Below, in pieces: positions 25,415 through 57,694 of a DNA stretch of 57,915 nt. The DNA comes from Fimicolochytrium jonesii (lineage: Eukaryota). Where the stretch lies: the NCBI RefSeq assembly GCF_025526975.1, contig NW_026515684.1:558001-615915 (forward strand), read 5' to 3'. The notes below the pieces were generated by a model. It had not been told where the DNA came from, made no database searches, and saw nothing but the letters and a program-made list of their open reading frames with translations. A program made the translations under genes and the position numbers. Position 1 is the stretch's first letter; every line of letters begins with the position of its first letter.

Positions 25415-28400
25415 TGCCGTCGAGAAGGATCCGAGTCCTGGAGAGGAGGAGGTCGAGGATGGAGTGAGACGGCCGAGAATGGGAGAGCGGAGGAGGGGAA
25501 GGAGAATGGCCAGGTGCTTCAGGTGGCGGAAGATGGGTATGGTTGCGATTGTACTTGTCGCGAGAGGGAGATGACTGAGGTGCGAGGTGTGAGATGGAAC
25601 GGAGGTGTTGCAATCCCGTCAGCTTCGGTCGTCCGTCTCTCAGATTCAGCGGTTGATAGGGGGGAGGGCTCTCCAGTTGCTCGCCACGTCCTTTTATAAG
25701 TGCCGGGAGCTAGTATGTACTGTTGTATGTGGTGGAGTGCGTGCAAGACGGGTTTGTCATTGCTGGAGTCCGCGTGTTGGGCGATGCATTTCTCATTGGC
25801 GACTCTGCGAGACTACGCGACGGAGTTCCGGAGGCAGGCGTTGCGACTCCGCCGCCCGGGGAACTCCAAATGGGCGAGAGACCGACCACTGGGTTCTGGT
25901 ATCGTTCCTGTCAATGCCGAGGGACACAGAACGCACTTCCCTCCTCTTCAAACAACCAACCTTACACATCGGCTGGTTGGGGATCTTCATTTATCATTTG
26001 GACCACCATATCTGCGAGACGCAATCAAACACCGAAATGTCCCGTTGCTCGAATGTTTGACAGCCCCGAAACTCAGGCGGTAGCTACCAGATCTCGCCTA
26101 CCTGGCGACGCCAGCAACATCCTTAAAGTGGTAAACGGAAAGCGGAGCGCCAACATAGCACATACTGTGCCCGTTTTGGGGTCAGGGATTTGATGAAGTC
26201 GGATTGGGGAAGCGGAAGCTTGTGCCGCACTTTCCGACGTTTGTTATCGATGGAGGCCAAAACGAAGCGGGAGAACAAGAAGAGCATACCGAGGATGCGA
26301 ACGAGAAACAGCATGTCACTTCATGGATGGGCACAAACGCAATTGCACGATGCGGCAGATGAATTCGCGTTGGGAGCGGGGCAACGTAGTCAGGTCCCAT
26401 ACAGCTTGGTCGTACTGGAACGGACAGGCTGTATGGTACCTGACTGCATTCTGCTTCAAGCCGCCGCGACTTGGCTGATCAGCAAATGTGGAAACGTTTG
26501 GAGTGGTGCTTTCTTACAACTTCATCATAACCCCACGGTGAGGGGGGGATGAGAACCCGCGAGCGAAGCTAGCTACCTCAAAGACATTGACTGACAATGC
26601 GGTGGACGAGCGAGGCTCACGGGCGAAGACGGGTATTCCGACTCGGGGCATACTGCGACTGCCAAGTTGGTCATCAGACGAAGTGTCCTCGGGACTCAGC
26701 TCTCGGTCGAGCAGATCGTGGCTACTGCGACTGAGAGGATGAAGTTCACCACGTCCTCCCTCCGCCGGATCTTATCAGCTACCGTAGGTGGACCTCGGCC
26801 GTACGACCGCTCCCGAGAATTTCTTCTCACTTTGGAAGTGGTTATCGCCTTCGGAAAGTGATATCTCTGCACGGTTGGAGGCTTTCATACACAGCGTAGC
26901 CGCACAGCTGCAGGCAAAAGGTTCCGAAAAGGACATTGTGAAGGAGAGGGAGCGGGAGAGGGAGAGGGAGGAGTGGATGACCACCGCAGCGGAGGTGAAC
27001 ACGGGGCGCAGACAGCTGGGGCGCAAACACACCCTGGACAACACGGCGTCAAATCCATACCACAATCTGTGGGCGGTTGGCGGAGCGGAAGGAGGGCGTG
27101 GGTGCTGCTGCGGCGGAGGAGCTTTTGAAGTGGGCAGGGCAAAACACATGGATCAAGTGTAAGACACGAAGAGCCGATGGCAGGCTACGGCAATGTCTGC
27201 AAGGCCACGTTCGTCGGCTGCTTCCAGAACCTCTACCACTCATTCGAGGCGGACATCGTGTCCGACCTCATCAATGCACTTGATGACAAAAACTGAGCGC
27301 GAACAAAATGCGAGATATCGTGAAACATCAACCCCACCAACCTTCCGCCCACTTGCCCTAATCACCACGACACATTGGGTGTATTGCATTCTGTCTCACG
27401 ACAGATTATATGCACTCGAACTCAGGAAACCACCCACGTGTCCCCACCGCACACCCACCGGACAAATGCCCAAGCGCAAGAACACACACAAAGCGCACAA
27501 GGACGGTGTGGAGCCACCACGTCCGCTGCCTGGAGGACGGGCATTGTCGGTGGCGTTGAGACATCCCGTGCAGCTTGCAATAAGTGTGGGCGTGCAAAAG
27601 CCTATCTCGACGCCATCGCAACCATCCCTGGCAAACCCGTGGTCCCTCCCAACACTATCCCCGCACCCATCCCAGCCCCCACACCCCTCACTCTCCACCT
27701 CCCGGCCCGCCCGATGACCATCCCAACCCCCGTCACCGCAGCCCAACCCACTGTCTCCGCCGCCGCTGCCCCCGTCTCCGTGCCCCACCCCCTCGCAATC
27801 TCCAGCCTCCTCAACCCCGCCCCTATCCCCAACCCCCTCCCAATCTCCGCCCTCCCCAACCCTGCCCCCATCCCCACCCGCTCCACCCGCGCCGCCGCCA
27901 TCGCGGGTGTAGCAGCAGCAGCAGCAGCAGCAGCAAGCTCACTCCCACACCCGGCGACGAGGAGGAGGAGGGTTCTGATGCCGCCGAAATCGCCCAGGAG
28001 GAGCTGGCGGCACTGGAGGAGGAGGATGCACACTGGCGGGCGTTCGGCAAGGTGGTCAAGGGGACGTGCAGTTTGAGCGCATGTCAGGCAATGAGCGCTC
28101 ACACCGCACCACTCTTTGACGCTCATCGAGCGCGCCTCGCCGCCGTGAAATAGAAAGCGGAGACGGTGCAGGCCTTTACACCAGCAGACGATGACGCCAA
28201 GGATGATGATGATGAGTATACGTCGATGGAATCCCTCCCAGACTCGGAGCCCGTGTTACGGACCTACGGATCTACATCCGGTGGCGACGAGACAGCGGGC
28301 TCCGAGTTGTGCGAGGAGGAGGAATATGCATTTTCGTGAGGGTGAGTTCATCAATGTCTCCGAGACAAACTGTCTCCGCCATCTCCACTGCTCCTGACAC

Positions 28401-28848
28401 ACGCTCTCTCGTAGGAGGGAAGTTTCAGCAGCACACAGAACACGGGCATTTGATTACCAGACAATGAACTGCTTTCGTAAACGCCGACCACGGGCGGTCA
28501 TGATACTCGTCCAGATACTCCTCCAACGTTCCCAGTGGCATATTGCTTGTTGATGAGTGGCGATCGTGCCAAGATTTCGGTGGTGATCGTGCCAGATGAC
28601 AATTGTTGCCGGCAACAATACACAGTCGCGTCTCGGACAAGCTAGACAACTCGCTCAACTCGCTCAACCGTTTCTTCCTCCTTCCGCAACCCGTCACTGC
28701 GAGACATCAAGGTTGCATCCCCCAACCCTACACACATGCAAGACCTCCGCCAGCTACAGCAGCCTCCTCTAGGGCCTTCACTTTGGCTCCCCGCTCTCCG
28801 TTTCGTGTCTGAGTTACTCTGGACTTGCGATTACTACTGACAATATGC

Positions 28849-30618
28849 ATGGGGAAGGTCACTGTCCGGATCCGCCAAGTCAAGAAGTGGAAAGATACCG
28901 GGTTGAAGAAGGCGAGGGAACTGGAGAGGTTGGCGAAGCTCCTGACGGTACGTTGCGTGGTGTCGCGGGAGATTATCCATCTTGTGCTGATTGTTGTGAT
29001 TCAGATGAAGAACCAGTATGAACAAGGTCATGCACGCCGACAGGCCCAGCATGCCTCGAGCGTCAGTATGGGTATGAAGGCCCACAGCCATCTGGCTGCC
29101 GCGCAGCAGACCATCTTCGAGGTGGCGTTCGTCCGGAAGAAGCAAAAGCGTGCGGATAATGAGGAGGACGGTGAGGAGTTGCCTCCGGCGAAGAAACGGA
29201 AGGCGGACGACGACGAAGATCGCGACGCGGATGACGACGAAGAAGAACGCGACGCCAGCGAAGAAGGCACCGACGAGGACGGTGAAGGCACTGCTGCCGT
29301 GCCCGCTAATGCGCAGTGGACCACACCAACATCCTCAAGCAAAGGATTTGGATTCGTCGATTCGGAGAGTGAAAGTTCGAATTCAACCATGTCATCAGCC
29401 CCCGAACCCGATGAGCCAGAGGAGGTGTCGGAGACAAAGCTTCGCGCCTCCCTGCAAGCGCTGAAAGGAAAGATGTGGGAAGTCGGCGGCGTAAATTTGG
29501 CCATCAAGATGCGGCGTATGCAGCGCGCAATGTTGGCGCGCCTGGAGAAGACGGGTCCAATCATAGAGACGGCAGCGACGCTTATCAGCGAAAACTGCCT
29601 GGTGATCACTGCGGAGAAGCCTAAAAGCTATTTCGCGTTCTCAGACGATGAGTGGGTCGCGGTACGGGGAGCGTTCGCGCAATACCGTCTGAAGCTAGAT
29701 CATGCTTATGAGGCCTACGCCCATGGCGAGGTTCAAAGGATGCTCACCGCAAGAGATCAGCGGCTACCATATCGCGCGTTGATCCGAGGGGAAGGCACGC
29801 AGGAGGACCACGACGTCGCGTTGCTCCTTGATCAGCTGAACAAAAGGCTTCGAACGACGAAACCTGATAGGGGGGTGCACGAAGCCACATGGTGCTGCAG
29901 ATACATGTTGCCCTACTTTGATGTGCTGAGCCCGGAGATGGTTTGGAAGTACGACAACGGTAGCCACTACGGTCCCAAACGCCCGGACTTTTCAATCGCC
30001 GACGATAAGGGCATCGGGCTCGCCAACTTTGAGGTCAAGTCCCCATGGGCCACAGACGCTGCGAAGTACCAGGATATCGCTCGCACCATCCACCGCGGGA
30101 TCGATGAGATGAAGCTGGACCTGCAGACGTGGCGACCGAAGCGTAGCCCAGCCAGGCTCTGCGTGGCGGTGGCAGCGGAGCAAGGGACGGTGTTCCAACT
30201 GATGCTGCACAAAGGCATCTTCGTGGCGGTTGAGATAGGCGTGTGGTGGTTCCCCACAGCGCTGCAAATGCATCAGGAGTGGCAGGTGGCGTCGTCTGTC
30301 GCTATGGCTTGCGCGATCATGAAGCGAGCTGGATGGGTGCGCAGGCAGGCGGCCCAGTACGTGAGGCTCGGGGTAAATGCGCCGCGGCTGAGCATCCTGC
30401 CGCCAGTGACACCTGTTTCTGTAGCAAAGTCGTCCGCTGCCAAGGGTGCGGCGCAAGCTGCCAAGCGTGCAGGTAAGCCGGGCGGTCCGCGTGCGGCTGT
30501 CCCCAATCCGCGGCCCCAGAAGACGAGCGCGGACCTTCCGGTGCAGAGCGTCCAGGTCAGTGCGCGGGCAGTCATGAAGCCTGCCAGTGGTACTTCTTCG
30601 AAGAAGCGTCAGGAGTAG
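28849..30618 (+). CDS. Putative PD-(D/E)xK restriction-endonuclease-fold protein (CR-REase-like) with acidic, NLS-containing N-terminus; probable 57-nt in-frame intron 28948-29004
   Basis: Long ORF with HEATW..Y..PYF, KRPDFSI, ANFEVKS and D..R motifs; PPAKKRK NLS-like segment; GTACGT..TTCAG intron signals. Confidence 0.6.
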   Translation: MGKVTVRIRQVKKWKDTGLKKARELERLAKLLTVRCVVSREIIHLVLIVVIQMKNQYEQGHARRQAQHASSVSMGMKAHSHLAAAQQTIFEVAFVRKKQKRADNEEDGEELPPAKKRKADDDEDRDADDDEEERDASEEGTDEDGEGTAAVPANAQWTTPTSSSKGFGFVDSESESSNSTMSSAPEPDEPEEVSETKLRASLQALKGKMWEVGGVNLAIKMRRMQRAMLARLEKTGPIIETAATLISENCLVITAEKPKSYFAFSDDEWVAVRGAFAQYRLKLDHAYEAYAHGEVQRMLTARDQRLPYRALIRGEGTQEDHDVALLLDQLNKRLRTTKPDRGVHEATWCCRYMLPYFDVLSPEMVWKYDNGSHYGPKRPDFSIADDKGIGLANFEVKSPWATDAAKYQDIARTIHRGIDEMKLDLQTWRPKRSPARLCVAVAAEQGTVFQLMLHKGIFVAVEIGVWWFPTALQMHQEWQVASSVAMACAIMKRAGWVRRQAAQYVRLGVNAPRLSILPPVTPVSVAKSSAAKGAAQAAKRAGKPGGPRAAVPNPRPQKTSADLPVQSVQVSARAVMKPASGTSSKKRQE

Positions 30619-30819: not shown

Positions 30820-31330
30820 TGTTATGACCATAAGCTTACCTCATGACAGCACACTGACAGCCGCCAATGTCAAACGCCAATGTCAATGTCAATGTCAATG
30901 TCAATGCCTTCTCCTCTCATTTCGCCAATCCCCCGCTCTCCTCTCATCCGCCAATCCCCCATTCGCCGCTCCTCCTCTACCCCGCTCATCTGTGAGCCAA
31001 TCTCTGGCCATTTGTCAACCCCCCCAGTACTTCTCCACAGCAGCTGTAGCTTGCTCTCTACACGCCTGCTACGCTCGCTCTAGGCTAGGAAGCATGGCTG
31101 GCGCTCACCCAGTCCCCTCTTGTTGTTGTCTTTGATCTGCTGGGTTGTTTATTTATAAATAGCCGCCCCCTCTTCGTCCATTCCCGTCCTCCCCAGCAGA
31201 TCAACACCAGTTTTTCTCATCTCCTGTTCTAGTCCTTGTTTCTTGTTTCGTCAATACAACCTCTTGTCACCTATCGCTCTCGCTCTGTCTTCTCTTCTTC
31301 GCTTCCGCATCCGTCGTCGAGATCATAACA
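30820..31330 (+). mobile_element. Solo LTR related to, but diverged from, the Gypsy LTRs at 34110, 38090 and 42882; opposite orientation
   Basis: TGTTATGA...TCATAACA termini, shared CCATAAGCTTACC, (AATGTC)n microsatellite, TATAAATAGCC; no matching TSD seen. Confidence 0.85.
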
Positions 31331-31479
31331 CACGGTTTGCGAGTTGCTGAGTGGATGACGCGGTGATCTTGAGATCGCTTTGTTATCCTGAACAGCGGTG
31401 CTTGGGCTCATAACCTAATAAGGCTATTATGTGCGCTGAGGTTGAATGAGGGAAACGATGTTATTACCAGTAATGTGCT

Positions 31480-31615
31480 AAAGTTCTATGAGCTATGCTA
31501 CGAGGGGAAGCTTTTCTACACAAGTTGCCATCATTGGCGACGCCTCAGGCAGAGGTACAATGATGTGGATGGCAGATAACCACCATGGAAAATGGAATGG
31601 GGTGAAAATTCTAGA
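31480..31615 (-). ncRNA. Candidate Fanzor omegaRNA (scaffold plus guide) downstream of the Fanzor stop codon
   Basis: Position expected for Fanzor ncRNAs; hairpin at 31569-31586; 8-bp stem 31529-31536/31558-31565 enclosing a CCTC/GAGG stem; boundaries are inferred. Confidence 0.45.
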
Positions 31616-32530
31616 CTACCTACGGTTACGGGAGAATGCGTCTGGTCTGTGGCCATTGCCAAACACCACCGAAGGCACAATCGAGAGGAAATTCTTGGTG
31701 CTTAGGACGTCCCGATTGTGCACTCTCATCCGTAGTCGTAGTGGTCGTCTTCCAGAAATCTCAAATGGCGTCCAGTCTTGGTTGATACATTCGGGGTTGG
31801 GGCAACCCACCAATCCATGGACAAATTCCATTCTTCCCTTTCGAGCTTGCCACGGCTGAGGTGACAGCCGGCGTCGGATGTTTTTCTTCACACGCCCGTG
31901 GCAGTCTGGGCACAGGGAGGACGTTCGATACTCATCTAGCAAGTAGCATGGAATGCTGTTTCTTGCAAAGAGTGTGCGGAATCTGATTTCCCCCCATGAG
32001 TGAGCGTATTATAATACATAAAAAACAATGATGGTCACTCACCCTTTGGTCTTTGATGACTCCTGAAAGCGCATGGTTTTTCCAGCGTCGCTCCAATCAC
32101 CCAAGATGACCGAAAAATGCTTTCCATACAGGCGTCGCATGTTCTTGATGAGCTTGCTCTCAGACTTTTGCCGCAGTGAGAACGCCTTGAATCTGCGAGC
32201 GACGTGAATCTCATCCTGTTAAAACTCATCCAGGGCGGGATCTGGGATATGGATGTCGGCCCATGTATTACCAAAGTTGAAAATCAAAGTTGAAGTGGAA
32301 CATCATACCCGCATGTTCGTAATCCACGATGAACGCTGAGAACGCCTCGATGTTCATGCTCTTGTGTGATGGAATATGTGATCCCATCTCTGCGATGCCG
32401 GCATTGATCTTTCGCTCCGTCATGTCTCGTTGAAAGTACCGAGACTTTGTCTCGACCGCCCGTTGATTGGATGTGTATCTGGTATGGGGTGGTGCATTGT
32501 GAGAACGCTGCAGTGGAATGTCGCCGCAAC

Positions 32531-32702
32531 GGGGATGGTGGGGATGGTGATGGGGGGGATGGTGACGGGGGGGATGGTGGGGATGGGGGCGGGGACAGGG
32601 TTGAGGAGGGCGTTGATGGGGATAGCGGCGACAGCGGCGACAGCGGGGACAGCGGGGACAGCGGCGACAGCGGGGACAGGGGCAACAGCGGGGACAGCAG
32701 GG
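32531..32702. repeat. G-rich 9-bp (GACAGCGGS) and GGGGATGGT repeats inside Fanzor intron 32479-32726
   Basis: Direct inspection; flanked by a GTACGT donor and CAG acceptor on the minus strand. Confidence 0.85.
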
Positions 32703-34685
32703 CAGTAGTAATCAACTGAAACGTACCGAAATGGCCGCTCCTTCTTGTTGTCTCGACAGAACAGGAGGTCACGCTTGCCTGGATCAATGCAGACGATGTT
32801 TGGAGCCTCCCTTAGTTCCGCAATGTGGTGCTCAAAATACAGCTGCTTGACTTCTTCCCGCATTTGGGCCTTGCTGCGCTTCCGGGCCTGATGCCCATAC
32901 TTGAGCCCTGGCTTCTTGAAGTGGATGGTAGCGGAATACCCGTTTGTGCTGATTGACCCATCAATTTTGAGACCAAGCTTCTTTCGATCCTTGAAGACCT
33001 TGTCCTGCAATCCGTCATTCAGCGAGGTAATTGAAATAGGCGCAAAAGGATACAGACTTAACTTACATTCACATTGAGAAACTGCCCCCACAGCTCCCGC
33101 TTGCGTTCATCGGTGAAGTTCCCCATGCGACCTTGGCTCAAACCCAGGATATGAATGGCTAGGATCAGCGTGTCAATCCGAACAGATGACTGGATTCGAG
33201 ATTTGCGCAGCGGGATAGCAGAGAACAGCCGCATTCCACAGCGCTCATAGAGGCGTGAGAGCTCACAATAGGCACCTGTGATGAGGCGAGGCAGGTGCAG
33301 ACCATGATTATACAAAAGAGGAAGCGGGGGGGGGCCGGAAATATACTAACTCACCCAAATATGGCATTGCGTCCACCGCAAGGCTGTACGCAAGCGGCTC
33401 ATCCTGGGGAGGAAACAGAGCCCATAACTTGTCGAGGACGGTCCGCTCAAGTCGTGTGAGGCGCGCAAGCTCCTCCTCGGTTGGGTACTCTTCAAACGTC
33501 GCAAATTTTGTAAATTGACGGACCCGCTGATAATACTGTCTCCGCTGCGCTCGGTTGGCTCTGGCTCTACGGAGATGCAGTACAACTTGCTTCAAACCAA
33601 TCCTTTTGTTAACGTAGCGCAGAAATATTTGCATAAAATGCTCTTGTACGTTAACTTTGAGGTTGGTGAAGATGCTCTGAGCCGTGTACGCTGCAGTCTG
33701 TTGGCAATATCGCATGCGTATGGGGGCAAATCTGTGAACATCGCAGTACTCTTGAACCCGTGGACGCAACTCTTGCCCGATGACTGGATTGCCATTGTAG
33801 CCTGGATTGTTTAGCAGCTCAAATATCACGCTGATGTGCTTGTCCGTGATGTCCGGCAAATCGTGTAGAGGATGATCGGCTGTGGTGGGCAGACCTAGCA
33901 GTCAGGACATTGTTATGGGAAATATTATGGGAAATATACAGTGCACCTAAAAAAACTCACCAAGGTAGTACTTGAGAAAGAAGGTGGTGTGGCGCGCAAG
34001 GACGTGAACATGGGCTATAAATGCTGTCAGGCGCTCACTTTGAACTTGATTTTGATTATGGATGATTCGGTGAAGGGAAACCTTGGTGCTGGCATGTGTT
34101 TGCGGGCGGTGTTATGATCTCGACAAACTGAGGCGGAAGCGAAGTAGAGAAGACAAGGCGAGAGCGATGGGCGACAGGAGATTGTATTGGCAAAACAAGA
34201 GACGAGGACTAGAACAAGAGATGAGAAGAACTGGTGTTGATCTGCTGGGGAGGAAGGGAACGGACAAAGAGAGGCCGGCTATTTATAGGTAGGCAACCCA
34301 GCAGATCAGAGAACAACAACAACAAGAGGGGACTGGGGGGGCGCCAGCTATGCTCCTAGAGCGTGCGTGGCGAGCGTAGAGAGCATTGCTACAGCTGCTG
34401 GCTATGGGGAAGTAGTGGGGGGTGTGGAGAAGCCGAGGGGGGATTGGCGAAATGAGAGGAGAGAGGAGGAGTGGCGATATTGCAAGAGGATTGGCGAAAT
34501 GAGAGGAGAGAGGGGGAGTGGCATTGACATTGACATTGACACTGACATTGACATTGACATTGACACTGACATTGACACTGACATTGACATTGACATTGGC
34601 GTTTGACATTTGGCGGTTGACATTGGCGGCTGTCAGTAGGTAAGCTTATGGTATGGGCGCGTCGTCCATAACATCACCCCTCTCT

Positions 34686-36626
34686 TTAGCGGCGGCGGCG
34701 GCGGCGTCGAGTTTGGTGTGGCCGCAGAGGAGGTGCTACGGGGACAGAGGAAGACTTGTTGGGGTACGCGCTGTGGAAGTCCTGGAGGAGTGCGTCGGTA
34801 TGGGTGAGGTGTTCCACGGGCTCCCAGGTGTTCTCGGAGTCAGGCCAGCCCTGCCATTTGACCAAGTACTGAAGGCGACAACAATGGATGCGAGAGTCAA
34901 GGATGGCTTCAACAACCCACTCTTCTTGACCCTCAATGGTCTCTGAGGGCGCGGGTTCGGGTTCGTGTTGTTCGGGGATGGTGAAGCGGGGTTCGAGGAG
35001 CGAGACATGGAAGATATCGTGGATTTTGTACGTAGGCGGGAGCTTGAGCCGGTAGGCGACGGGATTGATTTTTTCGACGATGGGGAATGGCCCAATCTTG
35101 CGATGGTCGAGTTTCTGAGAGGGCCGGGTTGTATGGAGGTTTTTGCGGAGGAGCCAGACGTGGTCGCCAGGCTTGAAGTCCGGTCCAGGAATTTGTTTGG
35201 CGTTGGCGTAGCGCTTCATTTGATCTTGGGCTTCCTTGAGCTCGAGGGCGAGCTGTTCATGGACTTCCCTGATTTGTTTAGCGCGGGCTTCAGCGGCGGG
35301 GTTGACGGATTCGGAGGTAGCAGAGGCCGCGAAACTGAAGCGGGGGTGGAGACCCTTGTTGGCGTAGAAGGGGGTGGTCTGGGAGGCGGACTGGTGGGTG
35401 TTGTTGTAGGCGAACCCGGCGGACGACAGAAGCTGTTTCCAGTTGTCCTGTTGGTGGTTGCAAAAGCATCGGAGATACTGCTCCAGGATCTGGTTGGTGC
35501 GTTCCGTCTGGCCATCGCTCTGGGGGTGGAAGGCCGAGGAGCGGTTGGCTTTTGCCCCAAGGAGTTCGAGAAGTCGACGCCAGAACCGGGACTTAAACTG
35601 GGGTCCTCGGTCAGAGATGACGTTGTCGGGGAGGCCGTGGAGACGGATGATGTTGTGGAAGACTAGGTCGGCGGTGGATTCGGCGGATTCTGACTCGCTG
35701 CAGGCGATGAAGTGGGCCATCTTGGTGAGGCGACAGTTGACGTTCAGGATGGAGTTGTACCCGTCCCCGGGAGGCAGACCGGTGATAAAGTCCAGGGACC
35801 AAGATCCCCAAGGGCGGGTAGGGATACTGTTGGGCTGGAGTAGGCCGTATGGTTTGTGTTGACTGGATTTCGCTTGGCTACAGGTATCGCAGGACTTGAC
35901 GTAGGCCTTGACGAAGCGCCACTGGCTGGGCCACCAGTAGTTGCGGGAGGCGAGTTCGAGCGTCTTGGACATCCCAAAGTGGCCGGCTAGGGGAGTATCG
36001 TGCATGTCGTGGCAGACTTCAGCTCGGAGCTCGTTGGTGGGGACATAGACCAGGTTATCGTGCAGCAGGATCCCATCTTCATCTGAGAACCGCTTGATAC
36101 GATCTTGGGTTTCCTCAGTTCGTTGGGCGAGGGGTATCTTGAGCTTTTCGCGAATGGTCTTAGCGAGGGGATCAGAGGCCTGGGCGGCCTTAAGCTTGTC
36201 AAGCAGCGTGGTATCCATGGGTGTGAGGTAGGCAGCCGTGAGTTGAAGGCGTTCGGGAGTCAAAATTGTGGTTGCCTGGGAGCGGAACGCTTCTTCCCCC
36301 TCTTTTAGCTCATGTTCGGAGCGTCGGGAGAGGGCATCGGCTTGGTGCTGCTGGGGACTGGGGCGATAGGTAATGACAAAGTCAAAATCCGAGAAGAATA
36401 TCGACCAGCGGGCTTGGCGGCGGTTCAGGGTGCGGGTGGTCATGAAGTACTGAAGGTTTTTGTGGTCGGAGTAAACGGTGATCTTGTGACGGGCGCCAAT
36501 GAGATGGTGGCGCCACTGGGCAAAGGAGTCTTGGATGGCCAGAAGTTCCTTGTCATAGATCTCGTAGTTGATCTCTTCGGCCGTGAATTTGCGAGAGTGG
36601 AAGGCCACGGGGTAGGCTGCATCCAT
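34686..36626 (-). CDS. Partial Pol: RNase H, integrase (HHCC + DDE) and chromodomain
   Basis: PVAFHSRK..NYEIYDKELLAI; HD.P.AGH..C..C; WSLDFITGLP, ISDRG, DGQTERTNQ; GPF; EWVVEAILDSR..YLVKWQG..ENTWEP. Confidence 0.95.
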   Translation of the reverse strand: MDAAYPVAFHSRKFTAEEINYEIYDKELLAIQDSFAQWRHHLIGARHKITVYSDHKNLQYFMTTRTLNRRQARWSIFFSDFDFVITYRPSPQQHQADALSRRSEHELKEGEEAFRSQATTILTPERLQLTAAYLTPMDTTLLDKLKAAQASDPLAKTIREKLKIPLAQRTEETQDRIKRFSDEDGILLHDNLVYVPTNELRAEVCHDMHDTPLAGHFGMSKTLELASRNYWWPSQWRFVKAYVKSCDTCSQAKSSQHKPYGLLQPNSIPTRPWGSWSLDFITGLPPGDGYNSILNVNCRLTKMAHFIACSESESAESTADLVFHNIIRLHGLPDNVISDRGPQFKSRFWRRLLELLGAKANRSSAFHPQSDGQTERTNQILEQYLRCFCNHQQDNWKQLLSSAGFAYNNTHQSASQTTPFYANKGLHPRFSFAASATSESVNPAAEARAKQIREVHEQLALELKEAQDQMKRYANAKQIPGPDFKPGDHVWLLRKNLHTTRPSQKLDHRKIGPFPIVEKINPVAYRLKLPPTYKIHDIFHVSLLEPRFTIPEQHEPEPAPSETIEGQEEWVVEAILDSRIHCCRLQYLVKWQGWPDSENTWEPVEHLTHTDALLQDFHSAYPNKSSSVPVAPPLRPHQTRRRRRRR

Positions 36627-36885
36627 GAAACAGGACCTCGCACCGATGTCCAGGAGGGCGGCAAGCTGGAGTGGGGCTCGGCGAGAGGAGATCAGGAGGG
36701 TGACTCCAAGGTTTTGGTAGCTAGAGGTAGGGTGTTGCTGGTGACTTGGGGTGAACTGGGCGTGGGTGCGCCCTCTGCCGTTGCAATTGTTGCGGGGTGA
36801 GAAGGCCTACGGGAGGATTTGTTCAGCGCGCCGGCCTTTAGTGTCTACGGGGCCGGCGGGAACGGAAGCGATCTTCCAAGGTGAG

Positions 36886-37225
36886 AGGGTTGCGAGAGGC
36901 GAGCATCCTTTGTGTGGACCCCGCGAGAGGCAAGCATTCCTTTCTGGGAACCCTGCGGAAACCGAGATGAGAGGCGAGCATTCCTTTCGGAACCCCGCGG
37001 AAACCGAGGCAAGAGGCAAGCATTCCTTTTTGGGAACCCCACGGAAACCGAGACGGGAGGCGAGCATTCCTTTGGGAACCCCGCGGAAACCGAGACAGGA
37101 GGCCAGCATTCCCTTTTGGGAACCCTGCGGAAACCGAGATGAGAGGCGAGCACTCCTTTCGGAACCCCGCAGAAACCAAGGCGAGAGGCGAGCATTCCTT
37201 TTTGGGAACCTCGCGGAAACAGAGC
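36886..37225. repeat. About 40-bp minisatellite (~8 copies) inside the Gypsy element
   Basis: Repeated GAGAGGCGAGCATTCCTTT..GGAACCCCGCGGAAACCGAG. Confidence 0.9.
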
Positions 37226-37789
37226 ATGGGAGAGTGGCCCCCGCCGTTGCAATTGCTGCGTGGTGAGGTGGCCCAAGGAAACAGGGTACTGCGGATCGTA
37301 GGAAGGTGGTTGCTGGCTTCTGCCGTTGCAAATGGTGCGAGGTAAGAAGGCCAGGGAAGCCGGGGTCGGGAATTGTCGGACGTGCAGAACAAGGAACGGA
37401 GATGGAGGATGGATTGAGCTGCAACATGACAAGACGGGTGACGTGGACAACGGTCCTTGAAGTGATCGTTTGCCCACATGCCCTCGGGTAATGGGTGTGA
37501 TGAGTTACTGAGATTCTTCATGGTGTCATCTTCGTGCCTGAGACGGGGATGCGGGACTTGGATTGGGATGGCCGGAAACAGGGGTGTCAAGCAAGAACGA
37601 GAGGGTTGGCTTCTTCCGTTGCAGTAGATGCGGAGGTGAGAAAGCCCAAGGAAAAACAGACGAACAGAGCGGGTGGAGTGTTGAGGGTCTCCGGGTGTCG
37701 GCGGTGGTGTGTCGAGGTACAGGGTTTAGTTACAGGGTGACCGGGTTACTGGAGGTGCTGAGCCGAGCTGGTGTTGGGTGCTAGGGCGA

Positions 37790-38021
37790 CTAGGGCTGGT
37801 TCAGGCGGCTGAGGTTGCCTGGGCTTGAGCTGATCTTTGGCTCCAGAGCTTCAGGCGCAGGGTTGGGGATTTGGGGATGGGTGTACGCATCGGGTTGAGC
37901 CTGGGCAGCAATGTTCTGAGCAGCTTGTGCGTTGGCTTGGGCTTGGGCTAGGTTGGCGTTGACTTGGCACATATCATTCCATTGCTTTGGCGGTGAAAGG
38001 TACGGATTCGGATTGGGCCAT
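37790..38021 (-). pseudogene. Remnant of the gag N-terminus
   Basis: Follows the 5' LTR and leader; Q/A-rich segment ending APEALEPKIS, then disrupted. Confidence 0.5.
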
Positions 38022-39259
38022 GGCGAACAGGTTTGGCAGATGCAAGGCTTGACGGGTTCTGAACTTCGCAGTGTTGGAGCAGATCAAACTGTTATGATCT
38101 CGACGAACTGAGGCGGAAGCGAAGTAGAGAAGACAAGGCGAGAGCGATGGGCGACAGGAGATTGTATTGGCGAAACAAGAGACAAAGACTAGAACAAGAG
38201 ATGAGAAGAACTGGTGTTGATCTGCTGGGGAGGAAGGGAACGGACGAAGAGAGGCCGGCTATTTATAGATAGGCAACCCAGCAGGTCAGAGAACAACAAC
38301 AACAAGAGGGGCTGGGGGGGCGCCAGCTATGCTCCTAGAGCGTGCGTGGCGAGCGTAGAGAGCATTGCTACAGCTGCTGGCTATGGGGAAGTAGTGGGGG
38401 GTGTGGAGAAGCCGAGGGGGGATTGGCGAAATGAGAGGAGAGAGGAGGAGTGGCGATATTGCAAGAGGATTGGCGAAATGAGAGGAGAGAGGGGGAGTGG
38501 CATTGACATTGACATTGACACTGACATTGACATTGACATTGACACTGACATTGACACTGACATTGACATTGACATTGGCGTTTGACATTTGGCGGTTGAC
38601 ATTGGCGGCTGTCAGTAGGTAAGCTTATGGTATGGGCGCGTCGTCCATAACAGGCGGGGTCGTTGAACTGGTGGTGGTGGCGGGGGTTCAAGCACCAGGG
38701 ATCGACCCGGTGTGCTGGGAAAACGGAAAGGGATGGGCGCGGGGAGGTGCAGTGGGCGCTGCAGACCCCTGTCCGCGGGTGAAAGCCCTTGCTGCGGCTG
38801 CTGCTGCTGCCCGTCTTCATCGCCGGAGCTCTCGCCAACCATGTCTGCAATTGCTTGGGGCAAGTGGCGTTGGACAGAAGGTGGGAGCTTGAATCGCAGG
38901 GTTTGCAATGGTGTGGCTGGCAAACGTATCGGCAATCGCGGGGTAACCGGAGCAACCTTCCTCCTCTTCCGCCGTGGTGCGGCTGCTCCAGTAACGATGC
39001 CACACCACAGGTGCCCCTGGAGCGCCTGGTGTGAGGACATGTTGGCTGTGCTGTGCCGAGACAGGTGTTGCAGGTGATTGCCGTGATGGCTGTGTGTCAA
39101 AGAACTCGCGTCAGTGCTGTGGTAATGAGCGGGGAGGATTTACAGCCTGGCGCAGTCGTGGCTTGTCCACACCGCATCTCCAAGACCACACTCTCCTCCT
39201 CTCACACAAAACGTCAAGCGCTCGCAGCTCACGCAACTCACGCAGAGCACACTCTGAGC

Positions 39260-41023
39260 ATGGAAACGTCAAGCGCTCGCGGCGGACGACAGCCCCCTCA
39301 CCCCCCTGGCCAGCGCCCACCTCCTTCCAGCTCAAGCCCGGCAACTCATGCAGAGCAAGCACATTTGAGCATGGAAACGTCAAGCGAGGTGAGTGGCCGC
39401 TGGGTGTTGACCGCCTGGGCTCGCGGCCCATGTTGAGCACGACCGCCGCTTGCGGGAGGTCGACCTGCATGGGCCGTGCTGTCTGGGCGTGTTTGCCATA
39501 CGCTGCTCTCGCGGCCCATGTTGAGCACGACCGCCGCTTGCGGGAGGTCGACCTGCATGGGCTGTGCTGTCTGGGCGTGTTTGCCATACGCTGATCTCGC
39601 GCCCTATGCTGAGCACGACAGCCGCTTGCGGGAGGTTGACCTGCATGGGATGCGCCGCCCTGGTCGCGATCGGGCTGGGTCTGCTAACGCCTTCCCTTCC
39701 CCCCCTCCCTCTACCGCGCCGCAGGCCACGCCCCCGGTCGCACCCACCGCGGTCGAGGCTCTTCTGATGGGCATGGGCGAGACCCGCGCCACAGCTATCT
39801 TCGGCGACACGGTGGCCTTTTTGTATCTGCTGCTGGTAGACACCGGCCTTGCCGCCCGGGACGCCAGCCTAGAAGACAAGGCCAAGGCGATTGGCCTTTT
39901 TTCACAGAAGATCAAGCAAGACAACCCCACCCTTTGGGGTTGGTGGATCAATAGGCCAACGCGCTCCCGTCACCAGAAGAAGCGCGCCAAGCACCACATT
40001 GAGCTCCAGTCCGGCATCATCGCCGCGATCAGCGATGGCAGTCTTACCACGGCCGACTTCTCAGTCGACCTCCAGCCCTCCGCTAGCCGCCCGGCTGTTC
40101 ACATTGTGGTGCCAACGCCCGCCTCGTGCGATGGCTGGGAGGGCAAGATGGTCTATGCGGGGTTTGGGAAGAGGCTGGCGAAGGCGAGGGGCCTGGATGG
40201 GCTTGAGCAAATTGAACCCCAGGCGGGGGCGGACATCTACATCTGCGACGAGCACGGCGTCCTTGTGGCCACAATCTCGTACAATAGCGCGGGTCGTCGC
40301 GAACACGACCTGCGGCTGGGGCTCATTGTCGAGTCCTGTGGATCCCGGCCGGCTGTGGTTCGATGGAAGGCCTCAAGGGGCACAATGCACGCTGCGGGGC
40401 TTCGTCCTGGCAACAAGAACTCGGGATATGCCAGGGGGACATCGCACTATTCAATGAAAGGAGGGGCAGACATGTCCGCAAAGAAGTTTCTCGTCGCCAC
40501 GGAAAAGGCCTTCACCAAGCGACTGCTGCAGGAGCTCGCCAACCGCGACCCCACCGCGGCGGCATACCTGATGATGGCCATGCCAGAGGTGTACGGGCCA
40601 AATTCCGATGAGTTCCCCCCGCTGTTCGCCACCACCAACTATCAAGTGGTCGTTCACTCCGACCCGTCGGACAACGGCGTGGCCGGCAAGCTGAACCCGC
40701 ACACAGGCCACGCCATATGGAAGTCAACCCCCAAGGAGGAGCTTCCGGAGGAGCTTCAAGCCCGCAAGCTATGCGCGCAATGGGCGGCAGGCTATGCCGC
40801 CGCTCCGGCAACCGTCGTCGGTGAGTGGGCATTTGCGCTGCCAGAGCAAGGCTTCTACTTGGTGCTGCAGCCCGACTGCATGTGGGTGTGGATGCCTCAC
40901 AAGCTCCACGGAACGGCGGTGCTTGACATGTCCAGGGGCAGTCGCCACACGGCTGTTGTGACGCTGCCCCTGGCGACGGCCGCGGCCATCCGGAAATACA
41001 GCCTCCCTGATGAAGATGAATAA
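39260..41023 (+). CDS. TET/JBP-like 2OG-Fe(II) dioxygenase (about 475 aa); exon 1 39260-39388, intron 39389-39724, exon 2 39725-41023
   Basis: GTMHAAGLRPG; FATTNY..VHSDPSD (HxD at 40655); FALPEQG..LVLQ..WVW..KLHGT (distal His at 40907) followed by R; intron has GTGAGT donor, GCTAAC branch point, pyrimidine tract and CAG. Confidence 0.7.
39421..39649. repeat. 88-bp tandem repeat (~2.6 copies) inside the intron of the TET/JBP-like gene
   Basis: Units start at 39421, 39509 and 39597. Confidence 0.92.
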
Positions 41024-41429
41024 CCCGGCTAAATAATCCTTCCCCACAGTCATCCGTTCGGACCTTTTAGGTCGTCGGTCTAATATATAGCAACCCTCCG
41101 CTCTCTAACTCATCATCCGCTCGGACATTTTTGGTCGCTGGTTGTTAGTGTAGAAATGAATGCAATGTACACAAGTCGCTACCCACGACGGTCTTCTGGA
41201 AAGCCTTCCTGAATGACACACTGCGTTCGAAAACTGTTAGAAACGTTCGAAGCGAGGCGATAATTTTATCCTGGGGTCCACCTGGGGACCCGGACTTTTT
41301 CTTCAGGGTCCTTTGAACGGGCAGAAAAGCCAGCGCCGACCGCCGGCATTCCCAGGCATTACCTGTACTGTACTCCAGACCGCTTCAAGGTATTTCAAGG
41401 TAGCGGGATGTGCCTTCTTGCCCCCCGAT

Positions 41430-41584: not shown

Positions 41585-41753
41585 ATCAACTCGCGCTTGC
41601 TTGAGGCAGCTCGGAATAGGAGCAGCCTCGCGATATGCTACCCTCTCAACTCGACTAGCGCTTGCTTGAGGCAGCTCGGAATAGGAGCAGCCTCGCGATA
41701 CGCTACCCTCTCGACTTGACTGGCACTCGCTTGAGGCAGCTCGGAATAGGAGC
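41585..41753. repeat. 65-bp tandem repeat (~2.5-3 copies)
   Basis: GCTTGAGGCAGCTCGGAATAGGAGC at 41599, 41664 and 41729. Confidence 0.9.
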
Positions 41754-42151: not shown

Positions 42152-42224
42152 AGTACTGACGCCTTCCTGTCAGTCGAGCAGCCACCTCAAGACGCATGGT
42201 TTGAAACCAAGCCGCCATCAAACT

Positions 42225-42420
42225 TCCGAACAATCCCGTGGATCATCAGCGAACGAAACACATTGACGTTCGACACCACTTTATTCGGGAACTTGTAGCT
42301 GAACGCAAGCTAGATATTCAGTATATCTCAACAAAAGAAATGATAGCGGACATCCAAACGAAAGCTCTTCCAAGACTGGCCTCTGTTTATTTACGGGAAT
42401 TATGTGGGCTACGACAGTAA
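42225..42420 (+). mobile_element. Ty1/Copia RNase H C-terminal fragment
   Basis: NP..HQRTKHIDVRHHFIRE.V....DIQYIST.EMIADI.TKAL. Confidence 0.9.
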
Positions 42421-42881: not shown

Positions 42882-43420
42882 TGTTATGATCTTGACGACG
42901 GAGGCGGAAGCAAAGTAGAGAAGACAGGGCGGGAGTGATAGGCGACAAGAGCTTGTATTGGCGAAACAAGAAACAAGGACTAGAACAGGAGATGAGAAGA
43001 ACTGGTGTTGACCTGCTGGGGAGGAAGGGAATGGACGAAGAGAGGCCGGCTATTTTTAGATAGGCAACCCAGCAGATCAGAGAACAACAACAACAAGAGG
43101 GGACTGGGGGGCGCCAGCTATGCTCCTAGAGCGTGCGTGGCGAGCGTAGAGAGCATTGCTACAGCTGCTGGCTATGGGGAAGCAGTGGGGGGGTGTGGAG
43201 AAGCCGAGGGGGGATTGGCGAAATGAGAGGAGAGAGGAGGAGTGGCGATATTGCAAGAGGATTGGCGAAATGAGAGGAGAGAGGGGGAGTGGCATTGACA
43301 TTGACATTGACACTGACATTGACACTGACATTGACATTGACGTTGGCGTTTGACATTTGGCGGTTGACATTGGCGGCTGTCAGTAGGTAAGCTTATGGTA
43401 TGGGCGCGTCGTCCATAACA
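42882..43420 (-). mobile_element. Solo LTR of the same Gypsy family
   Basis: Near-identical to 38090-38652; TG..CA ends; TSD TTGAT at 42877-42881 and 43421-43425. Confidence 0.95.
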
Positions 43421-44356: not shown

Positions 44357-44523
44357 AGGACGGTCATCGATCACCCGCCGAACGGAACCGTAATAAGAGA
44401 AATGAATAAACGGGACGGTCATCGATCACCATCCGAACGGAACCACAAGTAAAATGAATAAACGGGACGGTCATCGATCACCATCCGAACGGAACCACAA
44501 GTAAAATGAATAAACGGGACGGT
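44357..44523. repeat. 52-bp tandem repeat (~3 copies)
   Basis: AAATGAATAAACGGGACGGTCATCGATCACCATCCGAACGGAACCACAAGTA repeated. Confidence 0.9.
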
Positions 44524-55127: not shown

Positions 55128-55196
55128 GGGTTAGGGGTTAGGGTTAGGGTTAGGGTTAGGGTTAGGGTTAGGGTTAGGGTTTAGGGTTTAGGGTTA
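55128..55196 (+). repeat. Interstitial telomeric array (~10 units with TTAGGGG and TTTAGGG variants)
   Basis: Direct inspection; same polarity as the terminal telomere. Confidence 0.97.
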
Positions 55197-56236
55197 CAAG
55201 ACCCCCTGGGTTGGGTTTTATTATTGGGTTGCCTGGAACCCTAGGGACTTAGAAATTTTCGAGTTTTTTGGCTTTTGGGTGTGTTCTACAGTTCAAATTC
55301 TTGACTCTGAGGGGTGTGGTGGCGGGGGGTGTTGCGCACCTAGGCAAGTCGGGGGGGACTAGGTGTGCAAGGGCAAGTGATGGGTCATATGGGTGGTGGT
55401 GCGGGTACGGGGGGGGGGGGGGCAGGGGTGCCAATAGGGGGGGGGGGGGGTTGATATAAAGGGGACATATATGTTATATATACGTTATAGGACTTGTGCA
55501 AATTGGGATTTTTTTAGTGCCGATCCGGAGTTGGCGTCCTAATTAAAAGTTGGCCCCATATCATATTCTCTAATTGAAGTACTCTCGGATTGGCAATCCG
55601 TGCGGAAACGGCTTCAGAAACTTAGAAAAACGAAATTTTCACGCGACAGGGGGTAAAAAATTGGAAAATGTGGTGATATCTCAACATCTGGCTGAATATC
55701 CAGTGTTGGGCACTTAATGAAAGTTGATTGTAGCCTATGGTTTGCATAGCTGATGTGGTAGCAAATCTTGTGTAACCTCGCTTTTGGCTGAAGAAAAGGG
55801 CCCCTTTTCAATTCTCAAGTAGTGACCCCCAAGACCTCCTAACAAAAGACACGAGTACGTATGTGCAGGCAAAGGGGTTTGGCTGTGTTCTCCAGTAAAC
55901 ATTTTGTGATTCCGCTGTGCATTGTAGACTGTTTGTAGGACCCTTGCGGAATGTTATTTACCAAAACTGTTGAACATTTTCCGGTTAAAGCAGTGTTCTA
56001 CAGTTTGTCCATGCAGGTTAGAGCACGTGACCTGGGCTTGCTTGCAGGGTACGCAGAGTGAGAGGGTTGGGGTTAGAGATTTCCCAGATCACTTATTAAA
56101 TTCAGCCAAACTGTCTCTGTCATGGAACATTTAAAATGGTGGAAAGTAGTATTGCATTTATTGATTTAGAGTACATTGGAAAAGCGCACATTCAGAAAGG
56201 GTTTTGGTGTAAAGTTATCAACGACATGCAACAGTA

Positions 56237-57694
56237 CTAAAGGACTTCCGCAAGCATGTCACGGACTTGGTTCTGTCCAAAAGTCGTACGGCACTCAGGG
56301 TACCTGGCGCAGCGGAGACGGAAACGATGCTGACCGCCAATGCTATGAAAAGCTGAGCCTCCACAGTTGGGACATTGAAGCTGATCACGATGCTGATGGA
56401 AGAGTTCACGGATATTGCCAATGGGAGCAGCATCAGGCACTTCCCCATCCCCATGACCCCACCAAGCACGAGCAGGATCAATGACGGGTGCAATGCCTTT
56501 GAACCATCCGGGATTGAAACCAAAAGAGTTGAGAACATCTCGGAAGCGCTGACAGTCTGTCACAGTAGTCTGTCTATTGCGATCTCCTCTGAATAGAACT
56601 CTGGTGGCAGCGTCCATGATGCCATTGATGAGACTGTAGTACTCTTCCACCGGCACAAGCTTCAAGGAGTTTGCGCCCATGTGCTGGAAAATGGTCTCGA
56701 TCTGGTCCAAATGGAGATTCAAAACCATCTGTTCCGCTGATTCCAACCTGGCGCACTGAACTCGCACTTCAACTCGCATGCCAGTAATGTGGAGCGGGTG
56801 ACTGTTGAGCCATTGACGTAAACCTCTCAGTGTCTCACTGCGATCACCAAGGCTGGACTTGGTTTGGGGCATTCGCGAAGACAAAGTCGAAGAGTAGGCT
56901 TTGAGCGCATGAACAAGCTTTGGGTAGCAAGTAACCCGAACATTGGCGTGACCCGCAATGTCAAAGCGGGTGGACCCAAATCCCTCACCAAGGATGGTGA
57001 GCATGGGAAAGGTGGCTCCAACTCCACGTCCATTGTAGCGAACCAAAGGAATGACACCACATGAGTGTTAATGTCTGACCAATGTCCCATGTGTTCAGTG
57101 CAGCATCGGGATGGTTGCTCACTTCCTGATCAAAGGAATAGGCTGGCAAAGTCTGAATGCGTTGCTTCATTCCATACTGCACAATGCGTACAGAGGGTGA
57201 CACAGCACCAATGATGTCCTGGAACCCAGACATCAACAGATTTTGCCGCCCAGCAATCAATCGTGAGTGATCCGTGCTTTCCCTCACGATGATCGAATGT
57301 TCATTGTGAAGTAACTCAAGAATCCTTGCCTTTGACTCTGGATTGAATGGAATGCTAATGACACAAGGTCTGCTAGCGATCCGCATCCAACCGGCGAAAG
57401 CTTCACTGTCCTTGATATGCTGCATCACTCCAGACAGTTCAACCAAGGTGAAGGCACCAAAGAGGGTGGTCAGCTTTGTGGTAGGGAGCGTAAAGGCCAT
57501 CCAGTCCACATCAAAGTAGCCAGTACTGCGAAAGACCCCAAACTGCTCATCCTGAGGGGCAGGAGAGTGATGGTGTTCCTCATCTGAAGAGCTTGAGCGA
57601 GAAGTTGGCAACTCGATGTCCTCACGCCCCTCATCACTATGATGATGAAAGTTGGAGCCGTTTGAACCAGAAATGGACAACTCCACATTCAAAC
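56237..57694 (-). pseudogene. 5'-truncated, frameshifted ORF with C-terminal zinc-finger-like motif, reading inward from the telomere
   Basis: ORFs 57692-56985 and 57046-56237 overlap in different frames; GMRVEVRV; CPNC-x16-C-x5-C; no ATG before the telomere junction. Confidence 0.55.

What the first reader, a model, noticed from the sequence alone, without database searches (positions are those of the whole stretch)
31480..41150. Fanzor1 head-to-head with a TET/JBP-like dioxygenase: candidate RNA-guided nuclease + DNA-base-modifier mobile module
Seen: with the Gypsy insertion removed, the Fanzor starts on the minus strand at ATG 39040 (or 38842) and a 2OG-Fe(II) dioxygenase gene starts on the plus strand at 39260, leaving only about 220-420 bp between divergent starts. 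Each gene has one intron swollen by tandem repeats. No DDE, HUH or YR transposase is visible in the unit. Established: Fanzors are transposon-borne TnpB descendants; fungal TET/JBP genes travel with Kyakuja-Dileera-Zisupton and Plavaka transposons and oxidise methylated bases. Inference: a co-regulated two-gene cargo in which the dioxygenase removes silencing methylation or marks self DNA while the Fanzor cuts empty sites. I know of no described Fanzor-TET/JBP pairing but cannot search the literature here.
Basis: partly seen in the sequence, partly recalled or inferred. Interest (0 to 1): 0.92.

Follow-up and report, generated by a model that had tools for sequence, protein, structure and literature searches.

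The report
Fanzor-plus-TET transposon family in chytrid
In a chytrid fungus, a broken copy of an RNA-guided DNA-cutter gene (Fanzor) sits head to head with a gene predicted to encode a TET-type DNA-base oxidase, and the pair recurs elsewhere in the genome, so they likely travelled together in one jumping element that would both re-copy itself and resist methylation silencing.

Summary
The geometry is real. With a young Gypsy insertion (34110-38652) removed, a 7-exon Fanzor1 (759 codons, close relative of SpuFz1) starts at 39040(-), 219 bp from a TET/JBP-fold dioxygenase (39260/39725-41023, +). The dioxygenase model (pLDDT 77.5) matches TET2, CMD1, NgTET1 and CcTet best and keeps HxD..H..R. Database names place the window in Fimicolochytrium jonesii, with at least 26 Fanzor and 12 dioxygenase models. 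The pairing recurs at two other contigs: one chimeric gene model spans both 5' ends head to head, and one pair has consecutive accessions. Both families show star-like trees of equal depth and strong CpG-transition decay, as for a methylated transposon burst. Against: 9 of 10 other dioxygenase models have no listed Fanzor next door, no termini, TSD, transposase or guide RNA were found, and this Fanzor copy is dead (LTR insertion plus stop codon). TET-carrying and Fanzor-carrying fungal transposons are each published; my searches found no report of both on one element, nor of a TET-carrying transposon in chytrids. Functional coupling is untested. Verdict: new variant of a known kind.

The parts
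30820..31330 (+). Solo LTR of the same Gypsy family, no matching target duplication; cuts off the sequence 285 bp beyond the Fanzor stop
   Evidence: 87-88% identical to the other LTRs
31331..31615 (-). Fanzor 3' region, expected place of the guide-RNA scaffold and element end; one hairpin near 31566-31531; not confirmed
   Evidence: folding z -0.3 to -1.9, best sliding window -2.7; no Rfam match
31616..31982 (-). Fanzor exon 7: RuvC-II Glu (DEYR, 31936), zinc finger (31912, 31804), RuvC-III Asp (NRD, 31717), stop
32043..32241 (-). Fanzor exon 6, with an in-frame stop at 32221-32219 (codon 579)
32309..32478 (-). Fanzor exon 5
32479..32726 (-). Fanzor intron 3' of the RuvC-I exon, 248 nt, swollen by 9-nt repeats
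32727..33004 (-). Fanzor exon 4 with RuvC-I DPG (32785)
33067..33275 (-). Fanzor exon 3
33355..33879 (-). Fanzor exon 2 (REC region)
33961..34109 (-). 3' part of Fanzor exon 1, ending at one copy of the GGCGG target duplication
34110..38652 (-). Young Gypsy (chromodomain-integrase) LTR element inserted in Fanzor exon 1; LTRs 34110-34673 and 38090-38652; RNase H, integrase and chromodomain found, no RT core found
38653..39040 (-). 5' part of Fanzor exon 1: start codon and a ~130-aa Pro/Gln-rich extension with RRKRRK that does not align to SpuFz1
39041..39259 (.). 219-bp gap between the divergent starts; candidate bidirectional promoter (untested)
39260..39388 (+). Inferred dioxygenase exon 1 (43 aa; alternative ATG at 39371), GTGAGT donor at 39389
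   Evidence: no database model or RNA supports it
39389..39724 (+). Inferred dioxygenase intron with 2.6 copies of an 88-bp repeat
39725..41023 (+). Dioxygenase exon 2, 432 aa: helical N-terminal part plus TET/JBP-type double-stranded beta-helix domain (from ~40148); His 40655, Asp 40661, His 40907, Arg 40943

Best explanation
The locus is a decayed copy of a multi-copy chytrid gene pair, likely the cargo of one DNA-transposon family, in which an RNA-guided Fanzor1 nuclease would re-cut emptied donor sites and a predicted TET-type dioxygenase would oxidise 5-methylcytosine to delay silencing. Shown here: the two genes, their head-to-head layout, their folds and catalytic motifs, their many copies, recurrence of the pair at two more contigs, and CpG decay in both families. 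Inferred: one master element carried both genes and spread in a burst; a transposase acts in trans or lies outside what survives here; one short divergent promoter serves both. Borrowed from relatives: Fanzor/TnpB restorative homing (PMC13565253, passages) and anti-silencing by transposon TET genes (proposed, not tested, in PMC12730594). The two proteins most likely serve the element independently, without touching each other.
For: Fanzor: intact paralog P0032 matches SpuFz1 (8gkh) at E 4.6e-149. Dioxygenase: 4 of 11 remote homologs hit Pfam PF20515/PF12851 below cut-off; Atlas first hit 0.96 to a cluster with 15% PF20515; AlphaFold model pLDDT 77.5 has TET2 Z 18.2, CMD1 16.1, NgTET1 14.9, CcTet 13.6 as its top four, then ALKBH3 12.8; Foldseek agrees. 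Pairing: P0023 (contig of 427,701 bp) joins the antisense of the dioxygenase 5' region to the Fanzor N-terminus at 85-89% identity, so that locus is head to head too; P0021 and P0006 have consecutive accessions on one contig, about 0.05 expected by chance. Median paralog identity 86% (dioxygenase) and 88% (Fanzor); both trees are star-like with like branch lengths, and the three linked Fanzors do not group. CpG-transition products at 44 of 122 CpG sites against 19 of 307 other C/G sites (dioxygenase) and 58 of 178 against 39 of 455 (Fanzor). Sister-clade dioxygenases lie near EnSpm-type (L004) and hAT (L024) transposases.
Against: 9 of 10 other dioxygenase models with an accession are not next to a listed Fanzor, 7 have none listed on their contig; the Fanzor list is incomplete, so this is not decisive. 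Fanzor model P0022 has a different upstream sequence. No terminal inverted repeat or target duplication was found, no transposase, no significant guide-RNA fold. 0 of 65 sister-clade loci hold a Fanzor (short contigs). The heavy CpG decay shows that the dioxygenase did not keep these copies unmethylated. The CpG test has no host-gene control family. Tree support values are mostly low. Strand is unknown for P0021/P0006.
Confidence: 0.55

Rival explanations
1. Two separate elements (a Spu-1-like Fanzor element and a TET-carrying element) nested or landed side by side once, and that composite was spread to a few loci by segmental duplication or as a minor subfamily; the pairing has no function.
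For: Only 1 of 10 other dioxygenase models with an accession is next to a listed Fanzor; twice as many Fanzor as dioxygenase models; recent identical duplicates exist (P0017/P0023 and P0007/P0036); the window is subtelomeric; P0022 differs upstream.
Against: The linked loci differ from each other as much as any two copies do (82-89%) and do not form a clade (weak support); only 219 bp separate the starts, with no inverted repeat between them; both families have the same age profile.
Confidence: 0.22
2. Same co-mobile unit, but the dioxygenase makes a different mark (thymine hydroxylation as JBP does, 6mA oxidation as CcTet also does, or a CMD1-type glyceryl adduct) that labels self DNA or alters Fanzor cutting, rather than erasing 5mC.
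For: CMD1 and CcTet are among the top structural matches; sequence identity to every solved TET is only 8-16%; a ~30-residue low-confidence insert follows the HxD motif, where CcTet has substrate-selecting residues (PMC12730594 section 3.4).
Against: The copies carry a clear CpG-transition signature, so 5mC is the likely mark on them; 6mA is reported low in Chytridiomycota (PMC11258239, passage); no glycosyltransferase partner is in the unit.
Confidence: 0.13
3. The two proteins act together: the Fanzor-guide RNA complex brings the dioxygenase to element ends or target sites, a natural RNA-guided base-oxidation system.
For: Tight divergent layout kept at independent loci; the dioxygenase has no recognisable DNA-targeting domain; the Fanzor has an extra ~130-aa N-terminal arm.
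Against: The Fanzor keeps all RuvC catalytic residues, as a cutter would; no fused model was seen among 38 models; the sister clade sits with other transposases and no Fanzor; transposon TET genes are reported to swap passively between element families (PMC12730594).
Confidence: 0.07

Closest known systems
SpuFz1 / Spu-1 element of Spizellomyces punctatus (PDB 8GKH; PMC10432273, PMC3627910)
   Same: Fanzor1 from the same fungal order, alignable over residues 129-759 (E 4.6e-149); multi-copy, no transposase of its own, also hit by Gypsy insertions.
   Different: Spu-1 is a 2.1-kb single-ORF element with 30-33-bp inverted repeats; this Fanzor has six introns, a ~130-aa N-terminal extension, a TET-type partner gene, and no inverted repeats that I could find.
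TET+ fungal DNA transposons, PU/AG/PE types (Kojima 2025, PMC12730594; Iyer 2014, not held, known through Kojima's introduction and recall)
   Same: TET/JBP-fold dioxygenase as repeated, transposon-like cargo, HxD..H triad.
   Different: Described there in rusts, mushrooms and Pezizomycetes with DDE or HUH transposases; the text has no mention of Fanzor or chytrids. Here the partner is a Fanzor and no transposase was found.
Human TET2, Chlamydomonas CMD1, Naegleria NgTET1, Coprinopsis CcTet
   Same: Top four structural matches, Z 18.2-13.6, 212-247 residues aligned.
   Different: 8-16% sequence identity; substrate not predictable from the fold; ~30-residue insert after HxD.
Pfam PF20515 (2OG-FeII_Oxy_6, Tet-like)
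   Same: Nearest sequence family, reached through homologs and Atlas features.
   Different: The window protein itself has no Pfam hit; homologs score below the curated cut-off.

Membership tests
Fanzor1 | RuvC-I DPG motif, RuvC-II Glu six residues before a C4 zinc finger, terminal RD | tested here: met
   DPG 32785, DEYR 31936, CPDC 31912, CPNPEC 31804, NRD 31717
Fanzor1 | Full-length homology to a characterised Fanzor1 | tested here: met
   P0032 vs SpuFz1 E 4.6e-149; PpFz1 2.4e-37; window copy 88% identical to P0032
Fanzor1 | Structured guide RNA at the 3' element end | tested here: inconclusive
   One hairpin, z not significant; no DNA of other copies to align
Fanzor1 | RNA-guided DNA cleavage | not testable with these tools
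   This copy is disrupted; P0032 looks intact
TET/JBP dioxygenases | Double-stranded beta-helix fold closest to TET/JBP members | tested here: met
   Top four Z-scores are TET2, CMD1, NgTET1, CcTet; CcTet is tied within 1 Z with ALKBH3, the first three are not; first AlkB at rank 24 in Foldseek
TET/JBP dioxygenases | HxD..H iron triad and C-terminal Arg | tested here: met
   H311, D313, H395, R407, conserved in homologs; role of the Arg in binding 2-oxoglutarate is recalled
TET/JBP dioxygenases | Match to Pfam Tet_JBP or PF20515 above cut-off | tested here: not met
   No hit for the window protein; homologs reach 24.1 of 34.9 and 23.8 of 27 bits at best
TET/JBP dioxygenases | Oxidation of a methylated base in DNA | not testable with these tools
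   Needs an assay
TET+ DNA transposon (Kojima 2025) | Multiple dispersed, similar copies | tested here: met
   12 dioxygenase models on 12 contigs, 26 Fanzor models
TET+ DNA transposon (Kojima 2025) | Defined termini with target-site duplication | tested here: inconclusive
   No inverted repeats in the window; copies could not be aligned as DNA
TET+ DNA transposon (Kojima 2025) | DDE or HUH transposase in the element | tested here: not met
   None in 36 window ORFs scanned; may be lost from this copy or act in trans
Spu-1-type element | Single ORF between ~30-bp inverted repeats | tested here: not met
   Seven exons, second gene, no inverted repeat around the Fanzor alone

The most novel reading that the evidence does not exclude
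A natural RNA-guided epigenome editor: a eukaryotic mobile element whose Fanzor-guide RNA complex steers its own TET-type dioxygenase to element copies or target sites, erasing or rewriting cytosine methylation at programmed positions.
Probability: 0.07. Interest if true: 0.95.

Novelty: new variant of a known kind. Interest (0 to 1): 0.62.

Why it matters
It would be a eukaryotic element carrying two selfish aids at once: a guide-RNA nuclease for staying in place and a DNA-base oxidase against silencing. Neither the in vivo role of Fanzors nor that of transposon-borne TET genes has been shown in the papers I read, and one small element with both, in a relative of the SpuFz1 host, makes both questions testable together. 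It also extends TET-carrying transposons to chytrids, adds a divergent TET subfamily of unknown substrate, and points to an intact-looking SpuFz1 relative (P0032).

Tried and rejected
No whole genome is held and no sequencing run was listed, so copies could not be aligned as DNA and expression is untested. Single-sequence fold was useless (pLDDT 35). Sequence searches of the dioxygenase against PDB, Pfam, PHROGs and NCBIfam found nothing significant. No relatives of the dioxygenase, P0038 or the Fanzor in viral contigs, none of the window dioxygenase in metagenome contigs. Terminal inverted repeats: best candidates no better than chance; a 14-nt look-alike at 31518 and 41169 is in direct orientation and was rejected. 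ORF 28813-30618 was considered as part of the unit and set aside: no CpG decay (index 1.07), no transposase match. P0062 and Fanzor P0010 share a contig, but P0062's accession could not be looked up, so it is not counted. No complex prediction was run, since neighbourhood was the only ground. Earlier scan notes hold nothing for this genome or these sequences.
Full report
Setting. The window ends in a TTAGGG telomere array. Its Fanzor exon is 100% identical to a model named as Fimicolochytrium jonesii (P0009), a chytrid of the Spizellomycetales, the order of the SpuFz1 host.

The Fanzor. A Gypsy element at 34110-38652 with a GGCGG target duplication splits exon 1; its LTRs agree at 556 of 563 bases, so it is young. 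Without it the gene has 7 exons and 6 GT-AG introns, 759 codons, 88% identical to paralog P0032, with one in-frame stop at codon 579. All RuvC and zinc-finger motifs are present. P0032 matches SpuFz1 at E 4.6e-149 over residues 129-759. This copy is therefore a doubly broken Fanzor1; P0032 looks intact.

The dioxygenase. Exon 2 (39725-41023) encodes 432 residues with no direct family hit. A search of 1.84 billion representatives gave 14 hits: 3 paralogs and 11 remote homologs, the best 39% identical (P0038, E 3e-74). Four of the 11 hit the Tet-like Pfam family PF20515, one also Tet_JBP, all below cut-off; 7 of 20 further homologs did so weakly. The Atlas put a PF20515-bearing cluster first (0.96; 15% of members; recognition value low). 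A model of the 291-residue core from a 36-sequence alignment reached pLDDT 77.5, pTM 0.80. Against 48,161 chains its best matches were TET2 (Z 18.2, rmsd 3.5, 247 aligned), CMD1 (16.1), NgTET1 (14.9) and CcTet (13.6), then ALKBH3 (12.8); Foldseek ranked the same four families first, and viral JBP1/TET proteins were the best named viral matches. H311-x-D313, H395 and R407 are intact in the window copy. It is a TET/JBP-fold enzyme; its substrate is not shown. Exon 1 and the 88-bp-repeat intron are inferred from splice signals only.

Copies and linkage. Two other contigs show the pair. P0023 is a mis-joined model whose first 122 residues are the antisense reading of the dioxygenase 5' region and whose remainder is the Fanzor N-terminus, at 85-89% identity in the best segments: that locus is head to head. 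Fanzor P0021 and dioxygenase P0006 have consecutive accessions on one contig. That accession order follows gene order is my inference; it fits P0013 and P0029, two halves of one Fanzor with consecutive numbers. About 0.05 such neighbours are expected by chance, assuming 10,000 genes. Against this, of 10 other dioxygenase models with an accession, 1 is adjacent to a listed Fanzor, 2 have one 15 or more genes away and 7 have none listed on the contig, and Fanzor model P0022 has an upstream part that does not match the window.

History of the copies. Median pairwise identity is 86% among dioxygenases and 88% among Fanzors. Trees of 16 Fanzor N-terminal regions (11 models with too little overlap left out) and 12 dioxygenases are star-like with terminal branches of mostly 0.03-0.08 and low support; the three linked Fanzors do not group. 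Many models are truncated or have lost catalytic residues (HxD intact in 8 of 12). Using window codons as reference, the residue expected from a C-to-T or G-to-A change appears at 44 of 122 CpG sites against 19 of 307 other C/G sites in 10 dioxygenases, and 58 of 178 against 39 of 455 in 23 Fanzors (p 1e-13 and 1e-12; near-duplicates left out; no host-family control). In the window the (TpG+CpA)/CpG index is 1.42-2.11 over the two genes, against a median of 1.05 in 19 host windows (2 of 19 reach 1.41), and falls to 0.88 right of 41024. This is the pattern of a transposon burst followed by CpG methylation and decay, equal for both genes.

Relatives elsewhere. An AT-rich sister clade (one member named Glomus cerebriforme; profile match E 9e-12) gave 65 metagenome loci. 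None holds a Fanzor (best E 0.88), but they are short (180 kb in all). Of 12 of the 57 other ORFs scanned, those on L004 match EnSpm-type and those on L024 hAT transposase families. The subfamily is thus transposon-associated, and the Fanzor pairing may be local to this lineage.

What is missing. No inverted repeats, target duplication, transposase or significant guide-RNA fold were found. A solo LTR without a target duplication lies 285 bp beyond the Fanzor stop and may have removed the end.

Mechanism. Most likely one element carried both genes as independent aids. Fanzor would cut the emptied donor site and trigger repair from the filled copy, as shown for TnpB and reviewed in PMC13565253 (passages). 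The dioxygenase would oxidise 5mC on the element to delay silencing, as proposed without test in PMC12730594. The CpG decay shows that the mark exists on these copies and also that protection did not last. Rivals: chance composite (0.22), other chemistry (0.13), physical coupling (0.07).

Literature. PMC12730594: read parts 1-4 of 7; 11 transposon lineages with TET in three fungal groups; no mention of Fanzor or chytrids in the text or the one supplement held. PMC3627910: parts 2-4 and passages; 'dioxygenase' absent. PMC10432273: section 7 and passages. PMC10530073: passages; 'TET' and 'dioxygenase' absent. bioRxiv 2023.08.09.552727, PMC10288648, PMC11258239: passages. Iyer 2014 is not held. 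Searches pairing Fanzor or TnpB with TET/JBP/dioxygenase terms listed nothing whose title or abstract start describes the pairing; most listed papers were not opened. Supplements of the Fanzor surveys, bioRxiv supplements, subscription journals and Repbase were not seen and could list this element.

Verdict. Observation confirmed, interpretation partly supported. Two known transposon accessories in a combination and host group that I could not find in print: new variant of a known kind, interest 0.62.

Noticed in passing
window 28813-30618 (+): Gene with an acidic N-terminal stretch and a KRPDF..EVK motif that by recall resembles PD-(D/E)xK nuclease domains of Crinkler-type proteins; no Pfam or PDB hit; Atlas neighbours are unnamed Mucoromycota clusters (0.93).
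   Followed up: partly
window 27100-28430 (+): Unnamed multi-exon gene with a Pro/Ala-rich repeat and a CpG-decay index (1.53) like the transposon genes; may be another repeat family.
   Followed up: partly
window 42882-43420: Clean solo LTR of the same Gypsy family with a TTGAT target duplication; four LTRs of this family lie within 13 kb. Fanzor model P0017 ends in the same LTR sequence, so the family hit another Fanzor copy too.
   Followed up: partly
window 42190-42410 (+): Short fragment that by recall resembles the RNase H end of a Copia pol; no Pfam hit at the threshold used.
   Followed up: partly
window 55128-55196 and 55900-57694: Internal TTAGGG array that cuts an upstream gene, followed by a 2.5-kb CpG-depleted (index 2.46) segment with ORFs running in from the terminal telomere and a weak zinc-ribbon hit; possibly a healed break plus a telomere-associated element.
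   Followed up: partly
window 13094-15769 (-): 831-codon ORF with internal ~445-nt repeats, 45-nt and 18-nt tandem arrays and a weak nitrite/sulfite-reductase ferredoxin-like hit.
   Followed up: no
P0002, P0005: Two dioxygenase models share a ~40-residue C-terminal tail not found in the window, hinting at downstream element sequence missing from this copy.
   Followed up: partly
L004:901-3739, L024:3466-5424, L006:287-667: Tet-like genes of an AT-rich fungal clade lie near EnSpm-type and hAT transposases and a Myb/SANT gene: likely TET-carrying transposons in a fungal group not covered by PMC12730594.
   Followed up: partly
window 41051-41126, 41589-41753, 44358-44523: Short direct and tandem repeats (63, 65 and 52 nt spacing) right of the dioxygenase; role unknown.
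   Followed up: partly
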